In this document: piece by piece, positions 24,887 to 49,828 of the stretch
How positions within the stretch are numbered: position 1 is the first letter of the stretch
Layout: the number at the start of each line of letters is the position of its first letter
DNA from: Smithellaceae bacterium
GTDB lineage: Bacteria > Desulfobacterota > Syntrophia > Syntrophales > Smithellaceae
Length of the DNA stretch: 64,000 nucleotides
Reading direction: 5' to 3'
Assembly (NCBI GenBank): GCA_035416785.1
Contig: DAOLNX010000002.1
Coordinates: 867-64,866, forward strand
Notes under the pieces: generated by a model
What the model was told of the DNA's origin: nothing
The model's database searches: none
The model's input: the letters and a program-made list of their open reading frames with translations, nothing else
Translations under genes and position numbers: made by a program

Positions 24887-24915
24887 TTGACATGCTTCTT
24901 TGATGGTGGTAATGA
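24887..24915 (+). promoter_or_regulatory. Candidate sigma70 promoter for tRNA-Pro
   Basis: TTGACA (24887-24892), then 14 nt, then an extended -10-like element (TGg, 24907-24909) followed by TAATGA (24910-24915). The tRNA 5' end lies 27 nt downstream. Confidence 0.35.
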
Positions 24916-24941
24916 CTTTTTCACTTAAAAATAAGGCATGT

Positions 24942-25018
24942 CGGGGCGTGGCGCAGTCTGGTAGCGTATCTGAATGGGGTTCAGAGGGCCGGTGGTTCAA
25001 ATCCACTCGCCCCGACCA
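24942..25018 (+). tRNA. tRNA-Pro (anticodon GGG), CCA encoded
   Basis: Folded by hand. Acceptor stem CGGGGCG/CGCCCCG, D stem GCGC/GCGT, anticodon stem TCTGA/TCAGA with loop AT-GGG-GT, T arm GGTGG-TTCAAAT-CCACT, and 3' ACCA. Total length 77 nt. Confidence 0.9.
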
Positions 25019-25046
25019 GTTCTTATTAAATTTGAGTAAACATTCC

Positions 25047-27635
25047 ATGCCGCGAAACTTTAAATCTCGATTTTTTCAACAAAAAAAAATGTTTTGGTCC
25101 TGTTGTGCGTTGTTTGTGGTCTGTTTTCTGGTTTTAGGCTGCTCTCATCTGGCAAACCGCCATTTCCGGAGCAAACTGGATGATCTCCAGGGAACCGTCA
25201 TTTTGGATGGACTCAAGGATAAGGTTACGGTAAGCCGGGATGATTACGGTATTCCTCTGGTGGAAGCGCAAAACATGGAAGATATGGCCATGGCTGTCGG
25301 ATATGTCCATGCCTCTGATCGGCTCACCCAGATGATCGGCATGAAGTTGTTGTCGCAGGGGAGGCTGGCCGAGATGGCCGGTCCTTCGGTCCTCGCTTTA
25401 GATATCTACATGCGCAGCGTGAATCCCGCCAGCACGGCGGAAATCCTCTATAAAAATGTATCAGCGGCCAACCGCCGGCTTTTGCAGTGCTACAGCGACG
25501 GCGTGAACGCCTATCTGAAAAGCCATCAGAACAGGCTGCCTCCGGGGCTTGCCCTGTCCGGTTACAAACCGGAGCCCTGGGAACCTGTCGATTCGGTCCG
25601 AGTCTTTACACTTTTGAGTCTTGGTCTGTCTTTTAACTTTGCTGAGGAAATCGCCATTTTGAATGTTGCCCAGGCGATTGGCGCAAAGAAGACGGCCTGG
25701 CTTTCGCCCATTTATCCGGATGAGTCTCTTGCGTTTGACGAGGCGGCCAAACTCGGAGAAATCAATCTGAAAATGGCGGAGGCCGGAATCCGCGAGCTTG
25801 CCGAACTTCATCCAATTTTGCATTCCCTCGGTCTGGGGGGCATTGCGGCATCCAATAACTGGGCCATCTCCAGGGAAAGAACCAGCGGCAAAGCCAGCAT
25901 TTTTTCCAATGACATGCATTTGCCCTTGAGCATGCCCTCGGTCTGGAATCTGTTGCACGTGCGCTGCGGCTCCTATGATGCAGCCGGAGTGAGCATTGCG
26001 GGAGCGCCGGTGATTATCGCAGGCTATAACGGACGCGTTGCCTGGGGTATGACGATGGTCATGGCGGACAATCAGGATGTTTTTCTTGAGCAAATCAAAC
26101 TGGTGGAAGGCAGGCTTCATTATCTGCACAAGGGAAAGTGGCTGCCGGTTTCCGAGCGTCGGGAAGTTTTCCGCAGTAAGGGAGGGGAACGAAAAAATAT
26201 CAGTATTTACGAGACCTTACATGGAACGTTGATGAGCGAGGCGCTAAGGGGGGAGCCTTTGCATCTTATTCAGGCCATGCCGGTGGACATTCCTTACGGT
26301 ATCGCCCTTTGCCGTGCGAAGCCGGATGGAAATGATGACAGCATGAATGCTTTTTTCCAGTTGGGTTTCTCCGGTTCGGTGGATGAAGCCATAGCGGCTG
26401 CAAAACGGATCCGGTCCATTCCTTTGAATATGATGTTTGCGGATAAAGAAAATATTGCGTGGCAGGTGACCGGCAATTACCCTTTGCGGGCCGGAGGGCG
26501 AGGACTTGCGCCATCGCCGGGCTGGACAGGCCGTTATGACTGGACCGGTTTTCTGGATTCGTCCGCTTTGCCGTATCAAAAAAATCCTCCGCAAGGATTT
26601 CTGGGCACGGCAAATCACCGCACAGTTCCGAAAGACTATCCCCATATTCTTTCCTCCTCTTGGTACTGGCCGGAACGAGCCGAGCGTATCGAACAAATGG
26701 TCCTTGCGACCCATCAGCACACGGCGGAAACCAGCATGGCAATGCAACTGGACACTTTCTCGCTGTTTGTGTCAAAATTGCGGAATGACGTGCTGACAGG
26801 ACCATTTGCGGCGGAAATCATGAAAGAGTCAGAGTCCTGGCAGGATGAAAAAAGAGTTTCGCGTATGCGCCTTGCCCTGGAGATGCTGCGGAATTTTCGC
26901 GGTGATATGAAGGCGGATTCGGCGGAAGCGGCGCTTTTGGGCTCTTTTCTGGACGCAGTTACGAAAAACATCTTTCTGGATGAATTGGGGCCAATGGATT
27001 CCCGGGCCTGGAAGTCGTTTGTGATTCTCAACAGTGAGAGCTATAACGCCACCTGCGATCATCTGCTCGTTCGCGGAAATGAAAGTCCCTTCTGGGATGA
27101 CATCGCTACGCCCGAAAAGGAAACCAAGGCCGGCATCGTTGCCCGGTCACTGGCGGATGCCGTTTTATTTCTGGAATCGACCTGTGCGGAAAAGCCACAG
27201 CAATGGAAATGGGGAAATCTGCACACCGGCACTTGGGAAACCGATAGTTTCCAAATGGCGAAGCATCTGGGATGGATGGAAAGAACAGCGTTGAAAAGCC
27301 TCTGGTCCTATTTTAACAGGGGGCCTTATCCTGCCGAAGGAGATATGTTCACACTCAATGTGTCGATGTATATGATGGGGGGAGATTTTCAGGCCTGGAT
27401 CATTCCCTCGATGCGGATGGTTGTCGATTTTAGCAGGAAAGAGCCCATGATGGCTGTCAACAGTTCCGGACAGTCGGATAATCCTTCCAGTCCCTATTAT
27501 GATGACGGTGTAGAAGCTTGGCGCGAAGGACGCTATTTACCTTTTCCTTTCCAGGAAGAAAACATTCGTGCACATTACAGACATATTCTGATTCTGCAGC
27601 CGTCTTCCAGTGCCGAAGAAAAAAACGCCATATAA
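25047..27635 (+). CDS. Penicillin-acylase-family Ntn hydrolase (AHL-acylase-like), lipoprotein
   Basis: Lipobox VLGCS. Candidate beta-subunit nucleophile in GIAASNNWAIS. Length about 860 aa. The start is trimmed to ATG 25047 because the track ORF (24900) reads through the tRNA. Confidence 0.85.
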   Translation: MPRNFKSRFFQQKKMFWSCCALFVVCFLVLGCSHLANRHFRSKLDDLQGTVILDGLKDKVTVSRDDYGIPLVEAQNMEDMAMAVGYVHASDRLTQMIGMKLLSQGRLAEMAGPSVLALDIYMRSVNPASTAEILYKNVSAANRRLLQCYSDGVNAYLKSHQNRLPPGLALSGYKPEPWEPVDSVRVFTLLSLGLSFNFAEEIAILNVAQAIGAKKTAWLSPIYPDESLAFDEAAKLGEINLKMAEAGIRELAELHPILHSLGLGGIAASNNWAISRERTSGKASIFSNDMHLPLSMPSVWNLLHVRCGSYDAAGVSIAGAPVIIAGYNGRVAWGMTMVMADNQDVFLEQIKLVEGRLHYLHKGKWLPVSERREVFRSKGGERKNISIYETLHGTLMSEALRGEPLHLIQAMPVDIPYGIALCRAKPDGNDDSMNAFFQLGFSGSVDEAIAAAKRIRSIPLNMMFADKENIAWQVTGNYPLRAGGRGLAPSPGWTGRYDWTGFLDSSALPYQKNPPQGFLGTANHRTVPKDYPHILSSSWYWPERAERIEQMVLATHQHTAETSMAMQLDTFSLFVSKLRNDVLTGPFAAEIMKESESWQDEKRVSRMRLALEMLRNFRGDMKADSAEAALLGSFLDAVTKNIFLDELGPMDSRAWKSFVILNSESYNATCDHLLVRGNESPFWDDIATPEKETKAGIVARSLADAVLFLESTCAEKPQQWKWGNLHTGTWETDSFQMAKHLGWMERTALKSLWSYFNRGPYPAEGDMFTLNVSMYMMGGDFQAWIIPSMRMVVDFSRKEPMMAVNSSGQSDNPSSPYYDDGVEAWREGRYLPFPFQEENIRAHYRHILILQPSSSAEEKNAI

Positions 27636-27717
27636 AACCGATTTGATACGCTCCGCGAATCGGTTTCCGCCGATGCGGATTTAAACTTGAATGTTTTTTC
27701 TCGAAAGGATCATTCCC

Positions 27718-29838
27718 ATGAGTTTTGGTCAAAGAGTTTTTTGCGGACAGGTGACGAAGGAGAATGTCGGCCGCCAGGTGCGGCTTTGCGGGTGGGTGGA
27801 TGCATTCCGGGATCACGGCGGCCTTTTGTTTGTCCATCTGCGCGATCGCAGCGGTATTCTGCAAATTGTTTTTAATCCGGAACTTGCCTCGGGAGAGGTT
27901 ATGCTCCGGGCATCGGCGCTGCGCTCCGAATATTGTATCACCGTTGCGGGCGAGGTGAAAATCAGGCGGGAAGGCACGGAAAATCCCCACATCGAAACGG
28001 GCGACGTCGAGGTCATTGTTACGGAACTGACCGTGCTTTCCGAAGCGGATGCGCTTCCTTTTGCCGTTTCGGAAAAGGCAATGATTGCCGGGGTGTCCAG
28101 CACCGGCACCGATCAGGTGGCAGAAGACCTGCGCCTCCAATACCGGTATCTGGACATTCGAAGGCCTTCCATGAGAGACAATTTAATGGCCCGGCATCGC
28201 ATTTTTCAATGCGTGCGTGAATTTCTGGATTCCAAAGGATTTCTGGAAATTGAAACGCCCGTACTTACGTCCAGTACGCCGGAAGGTGCCCGAGATTACC
28301 TGGTGCCCAGCCGCGTGCACGAGCGGAAGTTTTACGCTTTGCCCCAGTCGCCGCAGCTTTTCAAGCAGCTGCTCATGATCGGCGGCCTGGAGCGTTATTT
28401 CCAACTGGCCCGCTGTTTTCGTGACGAAGATCTGCGCCCGAACCGCCAGCCGGAATTTACGCAGCTCGACATCGAAGCTTCGTTTATCGACGAGGAATTT
28501 CTTTACGATCTGGTCGAGGAACTGACGGTGAAAATGTTTGCCGTCGGCGGTATCGAGCTTTCCCGTCCCTTTCCGCGTATGACGTATGCGGAGGCGATGG
28601 ATGCCACAGGCTCCGATCGTCCGGATTTGCGCTTCGGTCTTCGCTTTGTGGATGTGACAGATTTGTTTGCCAAAACCCACTATGCGATCTTTCGTCAGAT
28701 TCTGCAGAGAGGCGGATGCATTAAGGGCATCAACGTCAAGAGCCAGTCTGAAAAACTCAGCAAAAACGTTTTGCAGAATGAATATGCCAGGGAAATCGCC
28801 CCGTCGTTCGGCGCCAAGGGCATGACCTGGATGCGCGCCGAGGGCGGAAAACTGGAGTCCAACATCGTCCAGTTTTTCAGTCCCGATGAGCTCGATGCGC
28901 TATGGAAAAGGTTTGAGGTGGCCGACGGAGATGTGCTGATCATGGTTGCCGATCCTTCCTATGCTGTCGTTACGCACGCGCTGGGTCAGTTGCGTCTACA
29001 TCTGGCGCACCGTCTGGGGTTGATTCCGGAAAACCTTTTCTGTCCGGTCTGGGTGACGGAATTTCCGCTGTTTGAACCGGCGGAGGATGGATTTGTCACT
29101 TCCAGTCATCATCCTTTCACCGCGCCGGAGCGCATTGATTTTGATCCGAAAAATATCGAAGAACTGTTGTCCCTGCGTTCGCGGGCCTATGACCTGGTCA
29201 TGAACGGAGAGGAGCTGGGAGGCGGCAGCATCCGCATCAACCACCGCGACGTGCAGCGCAAAATCTTTGCGGCCCTGGGGCTGACGGAAGAGGAAACCAG
29301 GGAAAAATTCGGGTTCTTTCTGCGGGCATTCGATTTTGGAGCGCCGCCCCATGGCGGTCTGGCCCTGGGGATGGACCGCACCGTATCCATGATTCTTCAA
29401 ACCCAATCAATCCGGGAGGTTATCGCCTTTCCCAAAAACCGCAGTGCTGCCTGCCCCCTGACCGGAGCACCCTCCACAGTGAAAAAGGAACAACTGGTGG
29501 AACTGGGGTTGTTGAATATGGGCGGTCAGGATGTTTTGCCGGGAACCGCGGCAAAGGAAAACAAGCTTGATCATCTATCCTGGGTGTCGCGTATTGGTAT
29601 TTCCGGGGAAGAGAGGCCGGCAATCGAAGAGGGGATTGCGCAGGCTGAAAAACTGGCCCGGCTGGTGTCGGAAAAGGCGGGGTCGGAAGAGCCGATTTAT
29701 ACAGTGGCGCCGGTTTGCAACCGCACCCGCCCCGGAAAAGAGGCGGTACGTTCGGTTTTTTCGCAAAACGATCAGCTGTTCAAGAGCGCACCGGCGGTCA
29801 AAGGCCGTTATTTTAAAGTTGCCAGCATTCTGGAATAA
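27718..29838 (+). CDS. aspS: Aspartyl-tRNA synthetase fused in frame to a C-terminal GatC-like domain
   Basis: Class II AspRS motifs are present (FRDEDLR, GGGSIRI, HGGLALGMDR). The normal C-terminus lies near LVELGLL. The frame then continues 29563-29838 as a 91-aa GatC-like sequence ending GRYFKVASILE. ATG 27718 has AAAGGA upstream. Confidence 0.85.
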   Translation: MSFGQRVFCGQVTKENVGRQVRLCGWVDAFRDHGGLLFVHLRDRSGILQIVFNPELASGEVMLRASALRSEYCITVAGEVKIRREGTENPHIETGDVEVIVTELTVLSEADALPFAVSEKAMIAGVSSTGTDQVAEDLRLQYRYLDIRRPSMRDNLMARHRIFQCVREFLDSKGFLEIETPVLTSSTPEGARDYLVPSRVHERKFYALPQSPQLFKQLLMIGGLERYFQLARCFRDEDLRPNRQPEFTQLDIEASFIDEEFLYDLVEELTVKMFAVGGIELSRPFPRMTYAEAMDATGSDRPDLRFGLRFVDVTDLFAKTHYAIFRQILQRGGCIKGINVKSQSEKLSKNVLQNEYAREIAPSFGAKGMTWMRAEGGKLESNIVQFFSPDELDALWKRFEVADGDVLIMVADPSYAVVTHALGQLRLHLAHRLGLIPENLFCPVWVTEFPLFEPAEDGFVTSSHHPFTAPERIDFDPKNIEELLSLRSRAYDLVMNGEELGGGSIRINHRDVQRKIFAALGLTEEETREKFGFFLRAFDFGAPPHGGLALGMDRTVSMILQTQSIREVIAFPKNRSAACPLTGAPSTVKKEQLVELGLLNMGGQDVLPGTAAKENKLDHLSWVSRIGISGEERPAIEEGIAQAEKLARLVSEKAGSEEPIYTVAPVCNRTRPGKEAVRSVFSQNDQLFKSAPAVKGRYFKVASILE

Positions 29839-29849
29839 AGGAAAACATT

Positions 29850-31046
29850 ATGGATTCAATTTTTTTCCATCGCCATTTTGAAGAAACCGTTTTACCGGAC
29901 GGCATTTTGAAGGGATTGAAGATTGCGATTCAGCCCAATATCTCCGTTGCTGGCTGGCCGACGGAAGCAGGCTCTGGCGCTCTGACCGGTTTTCGAGCAC
30001 TGGAGGACGCAACGCTTTACCGTCTGATTCGTGAAGCGGGGGCGTACGTTTGCGGTTCCACGCGTATGAGCGAATTCGGTTTCGGCCTGACCGGTAGCAG
30101 AGCCGGCAAAGCGCTGATTTCGCAGGAAGCAGATGTGGAGCTGGTTTTGGATATGACGGGCGAAAGCCGGCTTGCGGCCGCCGGAGCTTCTGTCTGCGGC
30201 TTGAAGCCCAGTTGGGGGCTGGTATCTCATTTGGGCCTCATCGGTTTGATTCCCTCCATGGAATGTTGTGGGATTATTTCAGAAAATATCAATAATATCC
30301 GTATTATACTAAAGTCGGTCGCGGGACCGGACGAGAGGGATTTTTCAATGCCCGATGAAGAAATTCCGGATTTCGAGCCGAAGGGTGTTGATCCGGCAAA
30401 AATCGCAGTCGGCATTCTTACGGAAGTGCAGGACGCTTTACCGTCCACGGAGCAAAACCTTTTTCGCCGGGAGGTGGATGATCTGAAAAAACAGGGGATT
30501 CCCATCAGAGAACTGTCCCTGCCCGATTTTCCTCTGTTTATGGCGGTTCATCAAGTTGTCGGTTCGGTGGAGGCTTCTTCTGCGGCCGGCCGGTATGATT
30601 CCGTTCGCTACGGGCGCCGGGCGGCGGGCTCCAAAAACTGGAACGAGATGTATCTGGCCTCGCGCGGGGCGGCTTTTGGACCGCTGCTGAAGAGCTATCT
30701 GTTTCAGGGGGCGTATTTTCAATTTCAAAACTATCGCGCGTATGAGGACGCCTGTCGTTTGCGGGCGCGTCTTTGTCAGCAAATGGAAAAGCTATTTACA
30801 GAGACCGACTTTCTGCTCTTTCCGGCATTCCGCAGGGGCCTGTCGGAGAAGTCTTTGTCGCTTGCCGACACGTATGCTCAGTTTGCGGAAACGGCTTTCG
30901 CCAATGTGGCCGGATGTCCTGCATTTTACATACCGCCGGTTGCAGAAGAACGGGTCGGAATACAGCTGGCCGGACCCAGGCGAAGCGATGGACGGCTTCT
31001 GAATTTTGGCGAATATACGCAAAATTTGCGCCGGGGAGGTCATTAA
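29850..31046 (+). CDS. gatA: GatA-like amidotransferase subunit A, shortened and divergent (398 aa)
   Basis: GatA-specific blocks are present: GLKPSWG, VEASSAAGRYDSVRYG and NVAGCPAFYIP. It lacks about 50 N-terminal residues and about 20 residues of the amidase signature. It has IQPN where GatA has IKDN. AAGGA lies 7 nt upstream of the ATG. Confidence 0.75.
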   Translation: MDSIFFHRHFEETVLPDGILKGLKIAIQPNISVAGWPTEAGSGALTGFRALEDATLYRLIREAGAYVCGSTRMSEFGFGLTGSRAGKALISQEADVELVLDMTGESRLAAAGASVCGLKPSWGLVSHLGLIGLIPSMECCGIISENINNIRIILKSVAGPDERDFSMPDEEIPDFEPKGVDPAKIAVGILTEVQDALPSTEQNLFRREVDDLKKQGIPIRELSLPDFPLFMAVHQVVGSVEASSAAGRYDSVRYGRRAAGSKNWNEMYLASRGAAFGPLLKSYLFQGAYFQFQNYRAYEDACRLRARLCQQMEKLFTETDFLLFPAFRRGLSEKSLSLADTYAQFAETAFANVAGCPAFYIPPVAEERVGIQLAGPRRSDGRLLNFGEYTQNLRRGGH

Positions 31047-31048
31047 AA

Positions 31049-32476
31049 ATGGAATTTGAAGCGGTTATCGGATTGGAAATACATGTGGAACTGAATTGCC
31101 GGACAAAACTGTTTTGTGATTGCCCGAATAATCCCGGCGATGAACCCAATGCCAACACCTGTCCGGTCTGTCTGTGGTTTCCGGGCGCCGTGCCCCGTTT
31201 AAGTCAGGAAGCCCTTGAAAAAGCTGTTCTTTTGTGCATGGGACTGGGCGCTCAACTCCAGCCCCGCAGCGCTTTTGATCAAAAGGTTTATTACTATCCG
31301 GATTTGCCCAAGGGCTACCAGTTATCCCAGGCCCACCTGCCGCTTTCACGCGGTGGCGGCATTGATATTATGGATGAAAACGGAAAAATGCAAAGGTTGC
31401 GCATCCATCACATCCATATGGAGGAGGATGTCGCCAAATTGGTGCATGAAATGGAAGGGCGCCAGCCAATCAGTCTGGTGGACTTCAACCGCGCCGGCGC
31501 TCCTCTTGTGGAAATTGTGACGGAACCGGATTTTCGCACACCTTACCAAGCGATGGAATTTCTTAAGGCGTTGCGCACACAGGTGCGCTACGTGGGAGCG
31601 TCTGAATGCAGCATGGAAAACGGCACGATGCGCGCCGACGCCAATATTTCCATCCGTCCCCGGGGCTCAAACGAAATGAACACGAAGGTGGAGGTCAAAA
31701 ACATGAACTCTATCCGCCATGTGGGAGATGCCATCGCTTTTGAGATTACCCGCCAGACCGCAGCCGTTCACGACGGGAAGCCGGTCATTTTACACACTCG
31801 GCTGTGGGATCCGGACAAGAAAGTTACTACCGCCATGCGGGGCAAGTTTGAAGGTCCGTGTGTTCCCGATCCGATGGTGCCGGTCATTGAATTGTCATCG
31901 GACTGGATCGAAAAGATGCGTTCCCGGCTTCCGGAAATGCCCGCAGTCCGGGCCGCTCGTTTTGTTTCGCGGCATGGCCTGACCGGTGAAGAAGCAGCTT
32001 TTTTAAGCGCCGATCCGGACGTGGCCGGCTATTTTGAGGAATTGCTGGCAGAAGAAATTGCTCCGCGCATGGCCCTGCATTGGTTGACCACGCAGTTGTT
32101 GCCGGCATTGAAAGAGCGTAAACAGGAGGTGAGTGCTTCTCGTGTGACTTCCCAACGTTTCGGGGCGCTTTTGAAAATGCTGTCTCGTGATGAAATCAAC
32201 GCCAACGCCGCACGTGAAACCCTGACCTGTATGTTTGAGAATGATGACTCTCCCGAAGTCATTGTCGGCGCTCGGGGATTCCGGCAGGTTTCCGATGTTG
32301 CGGCGCTTGAATCTTTGATAGAAAAGGTGCTGGGTGAGCAAACGGAAGCCGTTACCGACTTTCACAGCGGCCAGGGAAAAGCAATGGGATTTCTCATCGG
32401 CCAGGTGATGAAGGCCTCCGGCGGCAAAGCCAATCCGAAAATGATCCGGGAATTGCTGGCAGCCAAGCTTTCATAA
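31049..32476 (+). CDS. gatB: Asp/Glu-tRNA amidotransferase subunit B
   Basis: MEFEAVIGLEIHVELNCRTKLFCDCPN…DLPKGYQLSQ…NRAGAPLVEIVTEPD… and a C-terminal YqeY-like tail. Starts 2 nt after the gatA stop. Confidence 0.92.
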   Translation: MEFEAVIGLEIHVELNCRTKLFCDCPNNPGDEPNANTCPVCLWFPGAVPRLSQEALEKAVLLCMGLGAQLQPRSAFDQKVYYYPDLPKGYQLSQAHLPLSRGGGIDIMDENGKMQRLRIHHIHMEEDVAKLVHEMEGRQPISLVDFNRAGAPLVEIVTEPDFRTPYQAMEFLKALRTQVRYVGASECSMENGTMRADANISIRPRGSNEMNTKVEVKNMNSIRHVGDAIAFEITRQTAAVHDGKPVILHTRLWDPDKKVTTAMRGKFEGPCVPDPMVPVIELSSDWIEKMRSRLPEMPAVRAARFVSRHGLTGEEAAFLSADPDVAGYFEELLAEEIAPRMALHWLTTQLLPALKERKQEVSASRVTSQRFGALLKMLSRDEINANAARETLTCMFENDDSPEVIVGARGFRQVSDVAALESLIEKVLGEQTEAVTDFHSGQGKAMGFLIGQVMKASGGKANPKMIRELLAAKLS

Positions 32477-32544: not shown

Positions 32545-34956
32545 CTATGCTTTGTCCAATTCTTTCTTAACGGCCAATCCAAGTTTCTCAATAACGTAGG
32601 GCTTTTTCACATAGGCACCGGCGCCCAGTCTCTGTGCGGAACGAACCCGATCCGTTTCGGAAAAACCGCTCACGATAATCGCCTTCTGTGTAGGGTTGAT
32701 TTCCAGGATTCGCTGATAAGTGTCAAGACCATCGATCCCGGGATCCATGATCATGTCCAGGACAACCAAATCTGCCTTGTGGGTTTTGAGATATTCCACT
32801 GCTTCTTCGCCTCCCGCAACCATGTGAACATCGTATTGGAGTTTGCGGAGCATGGTGGATGCCAATTCGCGTTGTCCAGGGACATCATCCACAACGAGAA
32901 TGGATTCTCCCTTTCCTCGGTATTCGGAAATATCGATGAATTCCTTTTCCGTGTCTTTCTCCTGTTTTGTTACCGGGAAATACAAAGTGAATATCGTTCC
33001 TTTTTCCAGTTCACTTTGGACATCAATGTAGCCGTTGTGGTCCTTTACGGTTCCCCAGACCACGGCAAGTCCAAGTCCTGTTCCGCTTCTCCCCATGACC
33101 TTCTTTGTGTAGAAAGGTTCGAAGATCCGGTTGGTGTCCTGTGCCGATATGCCTTCCCCCGTGTCGGAAACGGTAAGCACGACATAATGATCCTCCCGGA
33201 CTTCATCATAACCATGCACGGGACGATCCAGGTATTTGCTGCTTGTTTTCAAGGAAATCAGGCCGCCTTTGGGCATGGCTTCGGCGGCATTGGAAATGAG
33301 ATTGGCAATGGTTTTTTCAAGGTGGACTTTTGACCCCATGATATTGGGAAGCTCTGCTTGGCACTCCGTTTGTATTTGCAGATGGGGATGATAGGATGAC
33401 AACTTTTCTAATTCCGGGCTTTTTTGATAATCCAAAAGGATGGTGTTCAGATTGACGGAGCTTGTTTTCTGGACGCCTCTTCTGGCCAATGTCAGCAGAT
33501 CCTGAACAATAGCTGCCGCCTTCTGACTGGCGTCCTTGATATGAGCAACATGCGGTCTGATCGGGCTCGATTGGTCGATGTCATCCAGGATGATTTCCGA
33601 ATACCCCACCATGATGCCGAGCACATTATTGAGATCGTGCGCAACCCCGCCTGCCAGCCTTCCCAATGCCTCCATTTTTTCCGCGCGATTCAGCCGTTGA
33701 TAAAGTTGGAGCTTTTCTTCTTCAGCCGCTTTTCTTTCCGTGATATCAATCACCTGGATGAGAGATCTCATTTTGCCTGCTGAATCCATATAGACCGCGC
33801 TTAAGACCTCGCCAAAACGTTTTGAACCGTTTTTCCGGATAAAGGAAAATTCATAATGAGACGGGACATCTTCTCCACGTTGACGGCGCTGGTATCTTTC
33901 GAGTCCTACTAACTGGCTTTCTTCCGTCAGAAGAAAAGCGAAGTTTCTGCCGAGTAGTTCTTGCTTGGAATAACCAGTGATTCTGCATAATTCTTCATTC
34001 ACATAAATATAACGGGCGGCGTCATCCACAATGGCAATACCGGTAAGGGATCTTTCAACCGCGGAGCGGAATTTTTCCTCACTTTCCCGAATCATTTGAT
34101 CCGCACGCCTTCGCTCGGTAATGTCGATCAAATTGCCCACGACTTTGATCGGGCGGTTGCCTTCCAGCACCGGTTGGGCCATGGTCTGAATCCAGATACG
34201 ACGGCCATCGGCAGTGTTGAGTGGAAACACCAGGTCATAGGGTTGACCTTCCTGTACGCAACGTTGAAAAGCTGCCTGGATAACCGGACGGTCTTCAGGG
34301 TCATAGCAGGCCAGACTGCGTTTGATATGTTCGGGGGAACCTGCCTCAAATTCGTCGGACAAAAAACCGTGAATGCGGTATGTTTCGTTTGTCCAGGTCA
34401 TGGTCTGCCGCATTACATCCCATTCCCAGCCGCCGATTTTTGCCAGGCGCTGTGTTTCATCCAGCAGATTTCTGCTGTGACGCAAGGTCTCTTCCACGCG
34501 TTTGCGTTTTGTGATGTCTCGGCAGGCAGCTACACGAACCTGCTTTCCATGGTAGGACATTTCCCTTACCTGGATTTCTTCGATGAATGTAGAGCCGTCC
34601 TTCCGTCTTGCGCAAACTTCATAAGGTCCTGTGTCGCCGTGATTAATTTTTTCCAGCATGATCGCCTGATATTCAGGAACAATCAGATCATAGGCGCTCA
34701 TGCGTTTTAACTCTTCGAGTGTATATCCGAACATCTCCACAAAATGAGAGTTCACATCAATTGTTTTGCCGTGGTCATGAATGAGAATGCCCTCGTAACT
34801 GGCTTCCGAGAGCGTGCTGTAGCGCTCTTCGCTTTCCCGAAGAGCCTCCTGATCACCTTGAAAAAGCGTTCTGGAGTGTTCCAGTTCCTGAATTCTCTTC
34901 CTGAGTGCGGCGTTCTCTTGGATAAGTTCTTGATAGTTATCGGTATGATCGGACAT
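32545..34956 (-). CDS. Hybrid sensor histidine kinase (coiled coil, three PAS, HisKA, HATPase_c, receiver)
   Basis: 803 aa. Three PAS-like blocks, each ending in DIT(K/E)RK(R/A). H-box GGVAHDLNNVLG. DTGEGI…GTGLGL. Receiver ILVVDD…LDMIMDPGIDG…K. Confidence 0.9.
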   Translation of the reverse strand: MSDHTDNYQELIQENAALRKRIQELEHSRTLFQGDQEALRESEERYSTLSEASYEGILIHDHGKTIDVNSHFVEMFGYTLEELKRMSAYDLIVPEYQAIMLEKINHGDTGPYEVCARRKDGSTFIEEIQVREMSYHGKQVRVAACRDITKRKRVEETLRHSRNLLDETQRLAKIGGWEWDVMRQTMTWTNETYRIHGFLSDEFEAGSPEHIKRSLACYDPEDRPVIQAAFQRCVQEGQPYDLVFPLNTADGRRIWIQTMAQPVLEGNRPIKVVGNLIDITERRRADQMIRESEEKFRSAVERSLTGIAIVDDAARYIYVNEELCRITGYSKQELLGRNFAFLLTEESQLVGLERYQRRQRGEDVPSHYEFSFIRKNGSKRFGEVLSAVYMDSAGKMRSLIQVIDITERKAAEEEKLQLYQRLNRAEKMEALGRLAGGVAHDLNNVLGIMVGYSEIILDDIDQSSPIRPHVAHIKDASQKAAAIVQDLLTLARRGVQKTSSVNLNTILLDYQKSPELEKLSSYHPHLQIQTECQAELPNIMGSKVHLEKTIANLISNAAEAMPKGGLISLKTSSKYLDRPVHGYDEVREDHYVVLTVSDTGEGISAQDTNRIFEPFYTKKVMGRSGTGLGLAVVWGTVKDHNGYIDVQSELEKGTIFTLYFPVTKQEKDTEKEFIDISEYRGKGESILVVDDVPGQRELASTMLRKLQYDVHMVAGGEEAVEYLKTHKADLVVLDMIMDPGIDGLDTYQRILEINPTQKAIIVSGFSETDRVRSAQRLGAGAYVKKPYVIEKLGLAVKKELDKA

Positions 34957-35031
34957 GTGAAAAAAGAACTCCTATATCTAAAATGAATATTCCATGCTGG
35001 AAAGATCGTGGATGATGAATGATGGATAACT

Positions 35032-37167
35032 TCAGGATCTGTCGAAAACCTCCTTGATGACTTCAGAAAGTTTTTCCAGGGTGTATGGTTTCTGGATAAA
35101 GGCATTGACGCCCTGCGCCAGGGCGAAGGTCACTCTTTCGTCCTGTTTGAACCCCGAGGTCATGATGACCTTGACGCGGCTATCGATTTTTTTCATTTCC
35201 AGATACACCTGTTCTCCGGATTTTTGCGGCATCACCAGGTCCAGAAGAACACACGCGATTTCCTGATATCGTTTGCCGAAGATCTGCAAAGCCTGCAGGC
35301 CATCAGAAGCGGTAAGCACTTCATAGCCGCATTTTTTTAGAATGGCGCCTGCTGCCTGCCTCATGATTTCTTCATCATCGACGACGAGAATGATTCCCTT
35401 GCCTTGCGGCAGCTCAAAGCATTTTTCTTGCGTCTCTCGAATTTCTCCGTTATGAAGCACCGGTATATAAACATCGAAAGTGGTTCCCTGACCTTCTTCA
35501 GAATAAATATTGATAAATCCGGAATGTTGCTGAACAATGTTGTAAACCATGGAAAGGCCCAAGCCCGTGCCTTTGCCCTTTTCCTTGGTGGTAAAAAAGG
35601 GGACGAATATTTTGGCGATGGTTTGTGGCGTCATCCCGACACCCGTATCTTCAACCGAAATGCGCCAGTAGTCGATTTGTTTGGCCTCTGGACGGATTTT
35701 ACAAAAATCAGCGTCTGCGCGTACCTGGTCCAAACTGATCGTCAGAGTGCCGCCTTGCGGTTCCTGCGCGGACCGCATGATGGTCATGGCGTGGCCGGCA
35801 TTGACGCAGAGATTGAGAAGCGCCTGTTCCATATGGGTGGCGTCGGCCTTGGCCATGGCTTTTTCCGGGGGAACCTGCATATGGATATTAATGGATTTAT
35901 CAAAAGTGTTTTTAATGATGTTTTGAACATTCCATAGGGTGGTCTTCAAATCCATGGGGTAAAATTGAGTGTCCTGCTTGCGCGACAGGGTTAAAAGCTG
36001 CTGCACCATTTCCACGGCCCGCTGACCGGCCTTGTCCATGATATTCAACCATTTTTTCAGTTTTTCCGGATCGATTTGGCGGTTATTCTGCACTTCGAAC
36101 TGCAAAATGGAAAGCGTGCTGACAATGCCACCCAGGACATTGTTGAAATCATGGGCCAGGCCTCCGGCTAGAGTGCCGATGGTTTCCATTTTTTGTGCCT
36201 GAAGAAGCTGCTCTTCTAATGCATCTCTTTCCATGTCTGAAAGAATTCTTGCAACATGATCGGCAAAGATCACGCCAAATCCGATTTCATCTTCTTCCCA
36301 TACTTTGGGGGTGTTGTGCTCAAACGATACAAATCCTGCCACTTTACCTTTCAGAATAATGGAAACCATCAGAGCGGAGGCAATACCGCCGGGACGGAAA
36401 TAATTTTCATAAAGGCCGTTCATGAGCGGATCGGTTGCAACATCCGGCTGTAGGATGATTCTTTGTGCCTGAATTGCCTTGAAAAATTCCGGACAATCAT
36501 CTTCCTGCAGGAGAACATCCGTAAGATGCCTTTGTTCTGAAGAAATGAAAATGTCGGAGGATTTCAGACTTTTTCCGTTATTTTTCATCTGCCAGATGCC
36601 GCAACGGGAAACCTCCAGTGCGGCAAGGGCATTTTCGGAAAAGATATGAAAAACCATGCTAATGCTTTTGAAAGGGTCATTGCTTGTCAAACCGAATTCT
36701 GAGGACGCTTTCAGTTGTTTGGCCAGTCGGTTTTTCGAGCATAGTAATGTATGCTCGGAAACGGCCAGGTCAAAAACATTTTGCACAAGACCTTCGGCGT
36801 ATTCATTCAGTTGATTCGTAATCTGTTCGAATTCGGCACGGCTCCGGGCGTGAATCAGGAGTAAATCTTCCGCCGGATCGTGATGGAGATAAAGATGATA
36901 CTTTTCGTCATGAATCTTGATCTTCAGCGGTGTGCTGGCTGGATGGTGAAAACGACCGGCGATTCTTTCTTCGAGGCTTTCCCTGTCTTTTTCTGAAACG
37001 AAGATGCAGGGCAGGATGTCATCCAGATTCCGGAGATCAGGAATGTGAAACATATTCCGGAAGGCGCTGTTTGACAATGCTTCCCTCGTTTCCGGATTGA
37101 TCAGCAAAAGCGCCTCGATCGGATCATTTTGAAGCAAGTGCAGGGATAGAGAGCGTTTTTTCTTCAT
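35032..37167 (-). CDS. Hybrid sensor histidine kinase (N-terminal PAS-like region, GAF, HisKA, HATPase_c, receiver)
   Basis: 711 aa. GAF-like segment (…GKVAGFVSFEH…). H-box GGLAHDFNNVLGG. N-box NLCVNAGHA. DTGVGM…GTGLGLS. Receiver ILVVDDEE…LDLVMP…K. Confidence 0.9.
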   Translation of the reverse strand: MKKKRSLSLHLLQNDPIEALLLINPETREALSNSAFRNMFHIPDLRNLDDILPCIFVSEKDRESLEERIAGRFHHPASTPLKIKIHDEKYHLYLHHDPAEDLLLIHARSRAEFEQITNQLNEYAEGLVQNVFDLAVSEHTLLCSKNRLAKQLKASSEFGLTSNDPFKSISMVFHIFSENALAALEVSRCGIWQMKNNGKSLKSSDIFISSEQRHLTDVLLQEDDCPEFFKAIQAQRIILQPDVATDPLMNGLYENYFRPGGIASALMVSIILKGKVAGFVSFEHNTPKVWEEDEIGFGVIFADHVARILSDMERDALEEQLLQAQKMETIGTLAGGLAHDFNNVLGGIVSTLSILQFEVQNNRQIDPEKLKKWLNIMDKAGQRAVEMVQQLLTLSRKQDTQFYPMDLKTTLWNVQNIIKNTFDKSINIHMQVPPEKAMAKADATHMEQALLNLCVNAGHAMTIMRSAQEPQGGTLTISLDQVRADADFCKIRPEAKQIDYWRISVEDTGVGMTPQTIAKIFVPFFTTKEKGKGTGLGLSMVYNIVQQHSGFINIYSEEGQGTTFDVYIPVLHNGEIRETQEKCFELPQGKGIILVVDDEEIMRQAAGAILKKCGYEVLTASDGLQALQIFGKRYQEIACVLLDLVMPQKSGEQVYLEMKKIDSRVKVIMTSGFKQDERVTFALAQGVNAFIQKPYTLEKLSEVIKEVFDRS

Positions 37168-37242
37168 GGGTTCTCACCCTCTTCATCCATCTTTTTGTTT
37201 TATCCTTTCCTACCCGTCTTCTGAAACAGGCAGGTTCCACCA

Positions 37243-37644
37243 TTAGTCCTGACTGAATGTAATCAATTCAGGAAAAAGTTTCTGGATGACCGGAAACGTA
37301 CTTTCCTGCCAGGGAATATCGCTGTTTTGAACAATTCTTACCTTGTAGCCCTGGTCACTGGGTAAGCTTTTGGATTTCATCAGCCAGCTGATGATTGTCT
37401 TGATTCCGCTGGAGTTCACATAAGAGAGCTCTCTGAAATCGACAGATAGGATTTTGACTTTCTGGGCGATGGCCTCATCGTGTATCCGAAGCAAATAAGG
37501 CAGAATGAATTCGGAAGGATCTCTCATATCAATTTCTCCTGAAATGGCCAGAAGAATGCCATTTTCGGCTTCCTGTTCCTGAAGATCAGAAATGACCACT
37601 TTTGTTTTTTCGACTTCCAGAGGTTCGATATGGAGTTTATTCAT
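37243..37644 (-). CDS. STAS-like anti-sigma-antagonist-type protein (candidate phospho-acceptor of the adjacent kinase)
   Basis: 133 aa. VDFRELSYVNSSGIKTIISWL resembles the SpoIIAA/RsbV loop (…F(M/I)DSSGLG…). The start overlaps the kinase gene stop by 8 nt. Confidence 0.55.
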   Translation of the reverse strand: MNKLHIEPLEVEKTKVVISDLQEQEAENGILLAISGEIDMRDPSEFILPYLLRIHDEAIAQKVKILSVDFRELSYVNSSGIKTIISWLMKSKSLPSDQGYKVRIVQNSDIPWQESTFPVIQKLFPELITFSQD

Positions 37645-38131
37645 GGCTCGCCTCCCATTTTTCTATTGGAATGTTCGCAGTGATCTTCACGATACCGTTT
37701 TCAATGCTTGTGCTGATGTCCGCTTGGCATTCATAACGGATACGAGCCAGACCGAGAGCGCTTTTGCCATTGATAGCAATCGAACTGTCCTTCATTCTCT
37801 TGATGTAGGCGTCCAGGGGCGGGTTCTCGAAGAGTTCCTGAAGGCAACTTTGCAGGTCCGCGATATTTTCCTGTGAAGCGTGATTGCTCACGATGACTTT
37901 GATCATTTTTTGCGCACTGGTGACGTAAATATTCAGTTCGCTCCCCTCCAGATCGGAAAATTTGACGGCATTTTCGATGAGTTCATTCACAGCCATGGCA
38001 ATGCTGGTGGCCTGCTTTTTATTTTCAAGAGTGATGGCCATGAAGTTTTCCACAAATGTACGCACGGTTGATATGTATGTCCATTTGGGCCCGAATTTTA
38101 ATTCTACGTAAATCTTCGATTCCTTTTCCAT
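37637..38131 (-). CDS. Small GHKL-type serine kinase / anti-sigma-factor-like protein (RsbW/SpoIIAB/SiaB-like)
   Basis: About 164 aa from MEKESKIYVELKF (ATG, complement of 38129-38131). N-box-like AVNELIENAVKFS and G2-like SALGLARI. I saw no clear DxGxG G1 box. The upstream part of the track ORF overlaps the PP2C gene, so I discarded it. Confidence 0.55.
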   Translation of the reverse strand: MEKESKIYVELKFGPKWTYISTVRTFVENFMAITLENKKQATSIAMAVNELIENAVKFSDLEGSELNIYVTSAQKMIKVIVSNHASQENIADLQSCLQELFENPPLDAYIKRMKDSSIAINGKSALGLARIRYECQADISTSIENGIVKITANIPIEKWEASHE

Positions 38132-38160
38132 GCCCTTTCCCCTTTTTTCATTTATGCGTT

Positions 38161-39756: not shown

Positions 39757-39857
39757 GAAGTAACCTGCCGGTTTTGCATTCGTTCACATCCTGCCGGTTG
39801 TCCGGATTGCGGAAATCCGCTTTTCCTGCGCGTCTGTTCGTCCATCGGCAGATGGGG

Positions 39858-48487: not shown

Positions 48488-48498
48488 GAATGCACTCC

Positions 48499-49824: not shown

Positions 49825-49828
49825 TTTA

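What the first reader, a model, noticed from the sequence alone, without database searches (positions are those of the whole stretch)
29850..31046. GatA is shortened and appears to lack the catalytic lysine (possible pseudo-glutaminase subunit)
The product is clearly of GatA lineage: GLKPSWG, HQVVGSVEASSAAGRYDSVRYG and NVAGCPAFYIPP line up with GatA blocks. However, it is 398 aa against about 485 aa for typical GatA. I aligned it by eye to the S. aureus GatA sequence as I remember it (catalytic triad Lys79-Ser154-Ser178), and three differences appear. (i) About 50 N-terminal residues are missing. The ATG at 29850 has a good AAGGA Shine-Dalgarno sequence, and it is the most upstream start the ORF track reports in this frame. 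(ii) The conserved G-I-P-x-x-I-K-D-N block reads GLKIAIQPN, so the catalytic Lys is Gln and the adjacent Asp is Pro. (iii) About 20 residues between the MDEF-like block (MSEFGFG) and the GGSSGG block are deleted, and GGSSGGS reads TGSRAGK. The two serines may be retained (GS…TGES). An amidase-signature enzyme without the Lys is not expected to hydrolyse glutamine efficiently. This GatA may therefore be a structural scaffold only, with GatB using free ammonia or another donor. Alternatively, the locus may be a specialised paralog of a canonical gatCAB encoded elsewhere.
Basis: partly seen in the sequence, partly recalled or inferred. Interest (0 to 1): 0.78.

Follow-up and report, generated by a model that had tools for sequence, protein, structure and literature searches.

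The report
Glutaminase-dead GatA in AspRS–GatC operon
This gene encodes a shortened but widely conserved GatA subunit of the tRNA-dependent amidotransferase that has lost the residues needed to bind and split glutamine; it lies between an AspRS–GatC fusion gene and gatB, so the complex that makes Asn-tRNA(Asn) here probably uses free ammonia instead of glutamine.

Summary
ORF 29850-31046 (398 aa) has the GatA fold (AlphaFold pLDDT 93; best PDB matches are GatA chains, TM 0.86-0.89). It lacks about 50 N-terminal residues and a 20-residue loop.

Three alignment methods agree on two substitutions: catalytic Lys79 is Gln28 and the nucleophile Ser178 is Glu105. The glutamine-binding residues are also replaced: Tyr309 to His234, Glu354 to Leu279, Arg358 to Tyr283, Asp425 to Phe345.

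This is a conserved family, not an error. A pattern scan found relatives in 160 genome stretches, mostly Syntrophales and other Desulfobacterota. None of 82 orthologs has the Lys, and dN/dS is about 0.23.

The gene always sits between an AspRS–GatC fusion gene (27691-29838) and a canonical gatB (31049-32476). Degenerate GatA lineages in Bacillota have the same three-gene layout, in two cases behind T-box leaders with an Asn (AAC) specifier.

Best reading: a tethered Asn-transamidosome in which GatA' is a scaffold and probable ammonia entry port. Ammonia use is inferred, not shown. I could not test whether a canonical gatA exists elsewhere in these genomes.

I found no published description. 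I rate it a new variant of a known kind.

The parts
27691..29838 (+). aspS::gatC fusion gene (715 aa): bacterial-type AspRS joined by a linker to a C-terminal GatC-like domain
   Evidence: NCBIfam NF009460 'bifunctional aspartyl-tRNA synthetase/...amidotransferase subunit C' scores 1310 bits against a cutoff of 1379. NF001750 aspartate--tRNA ligase scores 756 bits against a cutoff of 443. Pfam finds tRNA_anti-codon, tRNA-synt_2 and GAD.
29566..29835 (+). GatC-like domain at the C-terminus of the AspRS fusion (about aa 626-715)
   Evidence: In the window PF02686 GatC matches only weakly (17.1 bits, E 0.006). All 26 orthologous C-terminal extensions tested hit PF02686, with a best E-value of 2e-8.
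29838..29842 (+). Shine-Dalgarno-like AAGGA, 8 nt upstream of the gatA' start and overlapping the aspS::gatC stop codon
   Evidence: Read directly from the sequence.
29850..31046 (+). gatA' : shortened GatA homologue (398 aa) lacking the glutaminase residues
   Evidence: PF01425 scores 176 bits; TIGR00132 scores 216 bits against a cutoff of 481. hhalign against canonical GatA gives probability 100%. The AlphaFold model has pLDDT 93.2, and its best PDB matches are GatA chains 3kfu, 3h0l, 4wj3 and 2df4 at TM 0.86-0.89.
29931..29936 (+). Codons for Gln28-Pro29, at the position of catalytic Lys79-Asp80 of canonical GatA
   Evidence: Gln is found in 80/82 orthologs and Lys in 0/82. Lys is found in 50/50 canonical GatA sequences.
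30087..30110 (+). Junction of the 20-residue deletion, plus the remnant of the GGSSGGS loop (L80-T81-G82-S83-R84-A85-G86-K87)
   Evidence: hhalign shows canonical residues 133-152 absent. MAFFT shows the GGSS columns empty in all 48 degenerate sequences. Whether Ser83 occupies the cis-Ser154 position is ambiguous.
30150..30170 (+). D101-M-T-G104-E105-S-R107: remnant of the 'DTGGSIR' nucleophile motif, with Glu105 (30162-30164) in place of Ser178
   Evidence: All three alignment methods agree. Glu105 is found in 82/82 orthologs; Ser106 in only 55/82.
30549..30551 (+). His234 codon, at the position of canonical Tyr309
   Evidence: His is found in 80/82 orthologs.
30684..30698 (+). Leu279...Tyr283, at the positions of canonical Glu354...Arg358, which binds the glutamine carboxylate
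   Evidence: The role of the equivalent yeast residues E330 and R334 is described in PMC4027206.
30882..30884 (+). Phe345 codon, at the position of canonical Asp425, a glutamine-binding residue
   Evidence: Phe is found in 72/82 orthologs. The role of the equivalent yeast residue D418 is described in PMC4027206.
31049..32476 (+). gatB (475 aa), canonical; its start lies 2 nt after the gatA' stop codon
   Evidence: NF004012 scores 555 bits (cutoff 338) and TIGR00133 scores 486 bits (cutoff 315). Pfam finds GatB_N and GatB_Yqey.

Best explanation
ORF 29850-31046 encodes GatA', a derivative of the GatA glutaminase subunit of the tRNA-dependent amidotransferase GatCAB. It keeps the GatA fold but has lost the catalytic Lys, the nucleophile Ser and the glutamine-binding residues, so it cannot hydrolyse glutamine by the amidase-signature mechanism.

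It is the middle gene of a fixed three-gene module: aspS::gatC, gatA', gatB. I propose that the products form a covalently tethered Asn-transamidosome. AspRS charges tRNA(Asn) with Asp. The fused GatC domain clamps GatA' to GatB, as free GatC does in GatCAB. GatB phosphorylates and amidates Asp-tRNA(Asn).

GatA' would serve as the obligatory structural partner of GatB. I infer that it is also the entry port for free NH3/NH4+ into the old ammonia tunnel, so that ammonia replaces glutamine as the nitrogen donor.

Shown here: loss of the residues, retention of the fold, family-wide conservation, purifying selection, invariant synteny, and an Asn-specifier T-box in the Bacillota counterpart. Inferred: complex formation, ammonia as the donor, and the absence of another glutaminase partner.
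For: 1. Residue loss. Lys79 is Gln28 and Ser178 is Glu105 by phmmer, MAFFT and hhalign. Tyr309 is His234, Glu354 is Leu279, Arg358 is Tyr283 and Asp425 is Phe345. All of these positions are invariant in 50/50 canonical GatA sequences. The replacement residues are themselves conserved in 82 orthologs.

2. Fold kept. The AlphaFold model has pLDDT 93.2 and pTM 0.92. Its top Foldseek hits are GatA chains from transamidosome and GatCAB structures, at TM 0.86-0.89 and rmsd about 2.6 A.

3. Selection. Median dN/dS over 44 pairs is 0.23 for gatA', 0.10 for gatB and 0.11 for aspS::gatC.

4. Synteny. In every one of 85 loci where the contig allows, aspS::gatC lies directly upstream and gatB directly downstream. 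The same holds for members only 40-43% identical.

5. GatC domain. All 26 C-terminal extensions tested hit PF02686.

6. GatB passes its equivalog cutoffs.

7. Bacillota parallel. Other degenerate GatA lineages have the same three-gene layout. Two of those operons carry T-box leaders whose specifier is AAC (Asn), so expression responds to uncharged tRNA(Asn).

8. Precedent for ammonia. NH4Cl supports transamidation while bypassing the glutaminase. Removing the GatF N-terminal domain, which caps the GatA site, increased NH4Cl-dependent activity in yeast GatFAB (PMC4027206).

9. Other aaRS genes. A GlnRS gene sits next to the module in L001/L002, so no Glu-AdT is needed there. A published survey lists Syntrophus aciditrophicus SB with one gatCAB set, one aspS, no asnS and one glnS (PMC4206432 Table S1).
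Against: - No biochemical data exist for this module.
- I could not scan any complete genome that carries the module for a second, canonical gatA, gatC, asnS or asnB.
- I did not see the S. aciditrophicus SB ortholog directly. Its membership is inferred from the NF009460 model scores.
- Most delta-proteobacteria in the survey encode both AsnRS and GlnRS. The survey's authors call GatCAB retention possibly vestigial in those that also have an Asn synthetase, so the module may not be essential everywhere.
- I believe wild-type AdTs use free ammonia less efficiently than glutamine. This is my own recollection and was not checked.
- Ser83 may sit at the cis-Ser position according to hhalign.
- Clostridia related to the Bacillota lineage can carry duplicate gatCAB sets, for example C. 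acetobutylicum with 2.
Confidence: 0.6

Rival explanations
1. Specialised paralog. The genomes also encode a canonical, active GatA (with or without its own GatC and GatB) that supplies glutamine-derived ammonia. In this reading GatA' is a non-catalytic paralog that forms an alternative or regulatory complex with AspRS–GatC and GatB.
For: I could not exclude it, because only 64 kb of the source genome and about 10 kb flanks of related loci were readable. Some Clostridia have two gatCAB sets and up to three aspS genes (PMC4206432 Tables S1/S2). Bacillota that lack GlnRS would still need a Glu-AdT.
Against: The only GatC seen is fused to AspRS, and the only GatB seen is translationally coupled to gatA'. 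This GatB is highly conserved (dN/dS 0.10) and passes its equivalog cutoffs, as expected of a primary copy. GlnRS lies beside the module in L001/L002. The survey lists a single gatCAB set and a single aspS for S. aciditrophicus SB and for every Desulfo* genus seen in the retrieved passages. No second gatA, gatC, asnS, glnS or asnB is present in the 64-kb window.
Confidence: 0.2
2. Vestigial module. These bacteria have AsnRS, GlnRS and an Asn synthetase, so transamidation is dispensable. GatA has decayed and is kept only because GatB or the GatC domain needs it to fold, or out of inertia. Little or no Asn-tRNA(Asn) is made this way.
For: Most delta-proteobacteria encode all 20 aaRS plus GatCAB, and its retention has been called possibly vestigial (PMC4206432). 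GatA' evolves about twice as fast as its partners.
Against: A dN/dS of 0.23 is far from neutral. Intact ORFs of constant length occur across 160 genome hits, and the replacement residues are invariant (Gln28, Glu105, Trp36, His234). GatB and the GatC domain are strongly conserved. In the Bacillota counterpart, Asn-specifier T-boxes drive the whole operon. S. aciditrophicus SB is listed without asnS.
Confidence: 0.08
3. Re-tooled hydrolase. GatA' still releases ammonia from an amide donor using a new catalytic set, for example Ser83-Glu105-Asp101, by analogy with Ser-Glu-Asp hydrolases.
For: Glu105 and Asp101 are invariant. Ser83 is present in 77/82 orthologs and aligns with cis-Ser154 in hhalign.
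Against: Ser83 is Asn in 5/82 orthologs. In the wider short family it is Gly or Asp (P0122, P0124, P0125, P0128, P0130, P0133). All conserved glutamine-binding residues are replaced by hydrophobic or aromatic ones. The oxyanion-forming GGSS loop is deleted or degenerate. The Bacillota lineages carry Phe, Leu, Ala or Ile at the nucleophile position.
Confidence: 0.07
4. Artefact: a sequencing or assembly error, or a recent pseudogene.
For: None found.
Against: An identical protein occurs in an independent assembly (P0001). More than 120 clusters at 90% identity have the same length and substitutions. Related sequences were found in 160 genome stretches. The gene is under purifying selection.
Confidence: 0.01

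Closest known systems
Canonical bacterial GatCAB (e.g. S. aureus 2DF4/2F2A, Aquifex aeolicus 3H0L)
   Same: GatA' has the GatA fold (TM 0.86-0.87). GatB is canonical and a GatC-like element is present. The gene order C-A-B is kept.
   Different: GatA' lacks the Lys and the nucleophile Ser of the Ser-cisSer-Lys triad and lacks the glutamine-binding residues. About 50 N-terminal residues and a 20-residue active-site loop are missing. GatC is not free-standing but fused to AspRS.
Asn-transamidosome (T. thermophilus 3KFU; P. aeruginosa 4WJ3): non-covalent ND-AspRS–GatCAB–tRNA(Asn) complex
   Same: The same partners are involved (AspRS, GatA-like, GatB, GatC-like). The best structural match of GatA' is the GatA chain of 3KFU. 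The logic of channelling Asp-tRNA(Asn) is the same.
   Different: Here the association would be hard-wired through an AspRS–GatC polypeptide, and the glutaminase is dead. Complex formation was not tested.
C. acetobutylicum T-box-controlled aspS–gatCAB operon (Saad et al. 2012, as cited in PMC4206432; details from my own memory)
   Same: An operon that encodes the whole indirect Asn-tRNA(Asn) pathway under an Asn-responsive T-box. The same arrangement is seen in L092 and L094.
   Different: As far as I recall, that operon encodes a separate GatC and a full-length, catalytic GatA. I could not read the paper.
Yeast mitochondrial GatFAB (4N0H/4N0I)
   Same: A non-standard GatC-type subunit remodels the surroundings of the GatA active site. 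NH4Cl can bypass the glutaminase, and opening the site raises ammonia-dependent activity (PMC4027206).
   Different: Yeast GatA keeps the S154-cisS130-K52 triad and binds glutamine.
AtzE–AtzG (PDB 6C62): a GatA-like amidase with a GatC-like partner, described as a vestigial complex
   Same: It is a derivative of the GatC–GatA pair that has left canonical AdT function. It appears among the structural hits (ranks 27 and 31).
   Different: By my recollection AtzE is an active amidase acting on a small molecule and has no GatB partner. GatA' is the reverse case: it keeps GatB and loses catalysis.
Tse8, a GatA-like type VI secretion toxin of P. aeruginosa (bioRxiv 10.1101/733030)
   Same: A GatA homologue whose biology rests on interaction with the transamidosome rather than on amidase chemistry (abstract listing).
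   Different: Tse8 is a secreted toxin, is not encoded in an aspS/gatB operon, and belongs to a different lineage.

Membership tests
GatA, glutaminase subunit of GatCAB (NCBIfam TIGR00132 equivalog) | Scores at or above the curated HMM cutoff | tested here: not met
   216 bits against a cutoff of 481.1.
GatA, glutaminase subunit of GatCAB (NCBIfam TIGR00132 equivalog) | Ser-cisSer-Lys catalytic triad (S. aureus Ser178, Ser154, Lys79) | tested here: not met
   Lys79 is Gln28 and Ser178 is Glu105 in three independent alignments. Lys is found in 0/82 orthologs and Glu105 in 82/82. The cis-Ser position is ambiguous: Ser83 sits there by hhalign only.
GatA, glutaminase subunit of GatCAB (NCBIfam TIGR00132 equivalog) | Conserved glutamine-binding residues (Tyr309, Glu354, Arg358, Asp425) | tested here: not met
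   They are replaced by His234, Leu279, Tyr283 and Phe345. The roles of the equivalent yeast residues are given in PMC4027206.
GatA, glutaminase subunit of GatCAB (NCBIfam TIGR00132 equivalog) | GatA three-dimensional fold | tested here: met
   AlphaFold pLDDT 93.2. The top nine Foldseek PDB hits are GatA chains or a GatA model, with TMq 0.81-0.89.
GatA, glutaminase subunit of GatCAB (NCBIfam TIGR00132 equivalog) | Encoded next to gatC and gatB | tested here: met
   The gene lies between the GatC-bearing aspS fusion and gatB in the window and in all 85 related loci where the contig allows.
GatA, glutaminase subunit of GatCAB (NCBIfam TIGR00132 equivalog) | Glutaminase activity, and physical complex with GatB and GatC | not testable with these tools
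   This needs protein biochemistry or a multimer structure.
Amidase-signature superfamily (Pfam PF01425) | HMM match above the gathering score | tested here: met
   176.2 bits against a cutoff of 27, in two stretches because of the internal deletion.
Amidase-signature superfamily (Pfam PF01425) | Gly/Ser-rich signature GGSSGG(S) followed by the DTGGS nucleophile motif | tested here: not met
   The motifs read TGSRAGK and DMTGES. The GGSS columns are empty in the MAFFT alignment for all degenerate sequences.
Bifunctional AspRS/GatC (NCBIfam NF009460, PRK12820) | Scores at or above the curated cutoff over the full length | tested here: inconclusive
   1310 bits against a cutoff of 1379, aligned over residues 9-715 to profile positions 17-723 of 723. 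Syntrophales orthologs score 1316-1363. Architecture and length match, but the score falls just below the very strict cutoff.
Bifunctional AspRS/GatC (NCBIfam NF009460, PRK12820) | C-terminal domain homologous to GatC (PF02686) | tested here: met
   The window alone is weak (17.1 bits, cutoff 23). All 26 orthologous extensions hit PF02686, best E-value 2e-8. Precomputed GatC hits are on record for the L086, L092, L093 and L094 fusions.
GatB (NF004012 / TIGR00133) | Scores above the equivalog cutoff, with GatB_N and YqeY domains | tested here: met
   555 bits against 338 and 486 bits against 315. PF02934 and PF02637 are both found.
Asn-transamidosome (functional class) | [quoted passage not shown] | not tested
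   The window contains no tRNA(Asn) gene, only tRNA-Pro. Non-discrimination cannot be read from sequence with these tools. Table S1 lists U1-A72 for S. aciditrophicus SB.

The most novel reading that the evidence does not exclude
A natural tRNA-dependent amidotransferase with no glutaminase that depends on free ammonia. GatA has been turned into a non-catalytic ammonia funnel. The former glutamine pocket is opened by loss of the N-terminal helices and a 20-residue loop. It is relined with Glu105, Trp36, His234, Tyr283 and Phe345, a carboxylate-plus-aromatic set that resembles NH4+ recruitment sites.

The whole enzyme is hard-wired to AspRS through a GatC fusion. This solution recurs, possibly more than once, in anaerobes from ammonia-rich, energy-limited niches (Syntrophales and other Desulfobacterota; Tissierellia and Clostridia). 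It would save the ATP that glutamine synthetase spends for each Asn-tRNA(Asn).
Probability: 0.45. Interest if true: 0.85.

Novelty: new variant of a known kind. Interest (0 to 1): 0.72.

Why it matters
Every GatCAB and GatDE enzyme I know of from the literature read here couples a glutaminase or asparaginase to the tRNA-dependent kinase/transamidase through an ammonia tunnel. A widespread natural variant that keeps the GatA body but removes its chemistry would show that the glutaminase half is dispensable in vivo.

It would also provide a natural experiment on how the tunnel is fed and gated. It would give a covalent version of the transamidosome that is useful for structural work.

It links translation to nitrogen and energy economy in syntrophic and amino-acid-fermenting anaerobes.

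There is a practical consequence for annotation. JGI names these proteins 'amidotransferase subunit A' and NCBI names them 'amidase family protein'. Metabolic reconstructions may therefore assume glutamine dependence wrongly, or miss the pathway altogether.

Tried and rejected
- First AlphaFold run. With 26 close homologues it gave an unusable model (pLDDT 58). It was replaced by a run with a 98-sequence alignment that included canonical GatA.
- Canonical gatA in the same genomes. The single genome-collection scan went on mapping the family. Protein searches list only the best 120 hits, so they could not reach a hypothetical canonical paralog.
- Cluster look-ups. The nearest canonical GatA sequences came from scattered taxa (a halophilic archaeon, WOR-3), which was not informative.
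- Syntrophus aciditrophicus proteomics papers. No usable supplementary text was held.
- S. aciditrophicus SB ortholog. I searched with the S. buswellii protein and found no hit named for that organism.
- Papers not held. Saad 2012/2013, Wu 2009 and Zhao 2012 could not be read. Tunnel-residue mapping and the C. acetobutylicum comparison therefore rest partly on memory.
- Literature searches. Searches for an AspRS–GatC fusion, a pseudo-GatA or an ammonia-dependent AdT found nothing relevant.
- PDB search with the GatC-like tail alone. It gave only chance hits.
- Neighbour-joining tree. It did not resolve whether the Desulfobacterota and Bacillota degenerate lineages share one origin. Each group is monophyletic, and the Bacillota forms are closer to canonical GatA (distance 0.67) than to the Desulfobacterota forms (0.80).
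- Considered and rejected: a sequencing error, a mis-called start codon, and a recent pseudogene.
Full report
**What is at the coordinates.** The window holds three tightly packed genes on the + strand.
- 27691-29838 encodes a 715-aa protein.
- 29850-31046 encodes the 398-aa protein in question. Its ATG comes 11 nt after the upstream stop and follows an AAGGA.
- 31049-32476 encodes a 475-aa protein that starts 2 nt after the preceding stop.

Family searches give the following.
- The first protein is a bacterial-type AspRS (NF001750, 756 bits, cutoff 443). Its best match is NCBIfam NF009460, 'bifunctional aspartyl-tRNA synthetase/aspartyl/glutamyl-tRNA amidotransferase subunit C' (1310 bits, cutoff 1379).
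- The third protein is a canonical GatB (555 bits, cutoff 338).
- The middle protein matches Pfam Amidase (176 bits). It reaches only 216 bits on the gatA equivalog TIGR00132, whose cutoff is 481.

**Checking the observation.** Three independent alignments map the catalytic positions.
- phmmer against solved GatA structures aligns 'LKGLKIAIQPN' with Aquifex 'LFGIPIAVKDN'. That puts Gln28 on Lys72 (S. aureus Lys79). It aligns 'LDMTGESR' with 'SDTGGSIR', which puts Glu105 on the nucleophile Ser171 (S. aureus Ser178). About 24 residues are missing in between.
- A MAFFT alignment with canonical representatives gives the same result.
- A profile-profile comparison of 26 family members against 26 canonical GatA sequences gives probability 100% and E 1.5e-53. 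The first canonical sequence happens to carry S. aureus numbering.

The profile-profile mapping is:
- Gln28 on Lys79 and Pro29 on Asp80.
- Canonical residues 133-152 deleted.
- Glu105 on Ser178.
- His234 on Tyr309.
- Leu279 on Glu354.
- Tyr283 on Arg358.
- Phe345 on Asp425.
- About 50 N-terminal residues absent.

In 50 canonical sequences Lys79, Ser154, Ser155, Ser178, Tyr309, Arg358 and Asp425 are invariant. The yeast GatFAB structure paper assigns the equivalent residues to glutamine binding (D418, R334, E330) and catalysis (S154-cisS130-K52) (PMC4027206).

Only the cis-Ser is uncertain. hhalign puts Ser83 on Ser154. phmmer and MAFFT do not.

**It is a family, not an accident.** A database search returned more than 120 clusters of 397-400 aa proteins at 58-69% identity. 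An alignment shows Gln28, Glu105 and many other positions invariant.

A scan of one genome per species found 160 stretches encoding relatives. Most are in Syntrophales: Smithella, Syntrophus buswellii DM-2 and Syntrophaceae MAGs. Others are the benzene degrader ORM2a, Desulfatiglans and Desulfobacteraceae. Some MAGs carry other phylum labels.

In 82 distinct orthologs:
- none has Lys at position 28 (80 have Gln);
- all have Glu105;
- Ser106 is Ser in only 55;
- Ser83 is Ser in 77;
- Trp36, His234, Trp264 and Gln291-Phe292 are invariant or nearly so.

Median dN/dS over 44 moderately diverged pairs is 0.23 for gatA', 0.10 for gatB, 0.11 for aspS::gatC and 0.16 for the GatC domain. GatA' evolves about twice as fast as its partners but is under clear purifying selection.

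With a deep alignment AlphaFold gives a confident model (pLDDT 93.2, pTM 0.92). Its best PDB matches are the GatA chains of the Thermus transamidosome, Aquifex, Pseudomonas, Thermotoga and S. aureus GatCAB, at TM 0.86-0.89 and rmsd 2.4-2.9 A.

**Context.** In all 85 related loci fetched, wherever the contig reaches far enough, an AspRS with the C-terminal extension lies directly upstream and gatB directly downstream. The flanking genes beyond that differ from locus to locus.

The extension is GatC. The window's own Pfam hit is weak (17 bits). However, all 26 orthologous extensions tested hit PF02686, with a best E-value of 2e-8.

A phmmer search against 50%-identity representatives shows a wider short family at 40-57% identity. 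It includes Desulfobulbus alkaliphilus and Desulfobacterales MAGs. Members examined are again flanked by the fusion and gatB.

A gap follows in the scores: the lowest near-full-length family member has E 1e-82 and the first ordinary GatA sequences appear at about E 1e-43.

Further degenerate lineages occur in Bacillota: Tissierella creatinophila and Clostridiaceae/Tissierellia MAGs. In these, Lys79 is Glu, Ser, Ala or Thr; Ser178 is Glu, Phe, Leu, Ala or Ile, and is retained as Ser in a few; and the GGSS loop is lost. They sit in the same aspS::gatC, gatA', gatB arrangement.

Two of those operons are preceded by T-box leaders at or above the Rfam gathering score. Their 8-nt specifier loops read CAAA-AAC-A and GAAG-AAC-G, so the specifier is the Asn codon. 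[quoted passage not shown] This is regulatory evidence that the module answers to uncharged tRNA(Asn).

**How it most likely works.** AdTs need three activities: kinase and transamidase, both in GatB, and an ammonia source, normally the GatA glutaminase, joined to GatB by a tunnel about 30 A long (PMC2330236). GatC is needed for GatA to fold and to bind GatB.

Here GatB and the GatC element are intact and strongly conserved. GatA' keeps the fold but lacks the glutamine-hydrolysing and glutamine-binding residues. The simplest reading is that GatA' is retained as the structural partner of GatB and GatC and that ammonia comes from solution.

There is experimental precedent. NH4Cl supports transamidation by yeast GatFAB when the glutaminase is bypassed. 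Truncating the GatF N-terminal domain that caps the GatA site lowers glutamine-dependent activity but raises NH4Cl-dependent activity (PMC4027206). The loss of the N-terminal helices and of a 20-residue active-site loop in GatA' could have the same opening effect.

The replacement residues are a carboxylate (Glu105) surrounded by aromatics (Trp36, His234, Tyr283, Phe345). They would suit an NH4+ recruitment site, but this is speculation.

Fusing GatC to AspRS would fix the stoichiometry and hold the amidotransferase on the synthetase. That would be a covalent version of the known Asn-transamidosome.

Using ammonia directly would save the ATP that glutamine synthetase spends per amide. That is plausible for syntrophs and amino-acid fermenters living in ammonia-rich, energy-poor settings (my inference). 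Many hits come from anaerobic-digester and biogas metagenomes.

**Is there another GatA in the genome?** This is the main gap. The 64-kb window has no second gatA, gatC, asnS, glnS or asnB. I could not scan whole genomes. Indirect evidence follows.
- A GlnRS gene lies next to the module in a Smithella-like genome, so Glu-AdT activity is not needed there.
- A published census of 547 genera counts genes per genome. Syntrophus aciditrophicus SB is listed with asnA 0, asnB 1, gatCAB 1, aspS 1, asnS 0 and glnS 1. C. acetobutylicum is listed with gatCAB 2 and aspS 3 (PMC4206432 Table S1).
- If S. aciditrophicus carries the module, the module is its only route to Asn-tRNA(Asn). I infer that it does for two reasons. 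The 723-aa NF009460 model scores 1310-1363 bits on every Syntrophales fusion tested, just under its cutoff. By my recollection S. aciditrophicus SB was the only Syntrophales genome available when such PRK models were built.
- I did not see its GatA' directly.
- Most other delta-proteobacteria in that census have both AsnRS and GlnRS. The authors call GatCAB retention in those that also have an Asn synthetase possibly vestigial. The module may therefore be essential in some hosts and auxiliary in others.

**Comparison with what is known.** The module works like GatCAB combined with a transamidosome. GatA' fails the defining tests of GatA membership: the equivalog score, the triad and the glutamine site. 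It passes the fold and context tests.

The AspRS–GatC fusion is already recognised by an NCBI model. JGI annotates GatA' as 'amidotransferase subunit A' and NCBI annotates it as 'amidase family protein' or 'hypothetical protein'.

Ten full-text searches found no paper that describes a triad-less GatA, an AspRS–GatC fusion or an ammonia-dependent AdT. The library covers open-access papers only, so prior description elsewhere cannot be excluded.

**Verdict.** The pseudo-glutaminase interpretation is supported. The ammonia-donor mechanism is plausible but untested. I rate it a new variant of a known kind, with interest 0.72.

Noticed in passing
window 27691-29838: The gene upstream of the finding is an AspRS with a C-terminal GatC-like domain of about 90 aa joined through a linker of about 30 aa. 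It is present in every related locus examined.
   Followed up: yes
L092 7918-12632 (Tissierella creatinophila), L091, L093 4882-9687, L094 2678-7538: Separate degenerate GatA lineages in Bacillota sit in the same aspS::gatC, gatA', gatB arrangement. In them Lys79 is Glu, Ser or Ala, Ser178 is Glu, Phe or Leu, and the GGSS loop is lost. A neighbour-joining tree did not resolve whether they share an origin with the Desulfobacterota family.
   Followed up: partly
L092 7618-7868; L094 2375-2623: T-box leaders lie directly upstream of the aspS::gatC operons. Both have AAC (Asn) at the specifier position. The L094 loop (GAAGAACG) also contains an overlapping GAA (Glu), which resembles the dual-codon NT-box I recall from C. 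acetobutylicum.
   Followed up: partly
L095 556-3740 (P0158, biogas fermenter metagenome); L088 428-2077 (P0154): These are GatA-like proteins with partial decay. P0158 keeps Lys79 and Ser178 but lacks GGSS. P0154 keeps the Lys but has Glu at the nucleophile position. Each lies next to a free-standing ORF of about 95 aa at the gatC position rather than an AspRS fusion. Decay of the glutaminase site is therefore not strictly tied to the fusion.
   Followed up: partly
L001/L002 10883-12574: A GlnRS-type gene (tRNA-synt_1c with the C and C2 domains, 563 aa) lies immediately downstream of the module, on the opposite strand, in a Smithella-like genome.
   Followed up: no
L006-L085 (record titles): Many loci with AspRS 75-80% identical to the window come from MAGs labelled Dehalococcoidia, Chloroflexota, Verrucomicrobia, Acidobacteria, Pirellulaceae, Gaiellales or Actinomycetota. 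Either contigs were mis-binned or the whole module has moved horizontally.
   Followed up: no
L020 2410-3606: The gatA' homologue in a MAG labelled Verrucomicrobia showed an in-frame stop when I extracted it. It could be a real pseudogene, a sequencing error or an artefact of my coordinate handling.
   Followed up: no
window 24942-25018 and 24900-27635: A tRNA-Pro(GGG) gene lies inside the 5' end of the mechanically called 911-aa ORF. The penicillin-amidase family gene (PF01804, match from residue 108) must therefore start further downstream.
   Followed up: no
window 32545-43395 (- strand): A run of signalling genes lies just downstream of gatB: three hybrid sensor kinases with receiver domains (PAS; GAF; dCache+PAS) and a SpoIIE-type phosphatase with a 4HB_MCP sensor.
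   Followed up: no
window 46066-51429 (- strand): A glycine-cleavage gene cluster (T protein and the two-subunit P protein) lies next to a lipoyl-synthase-like radical SAM gene.
   Followed up: no
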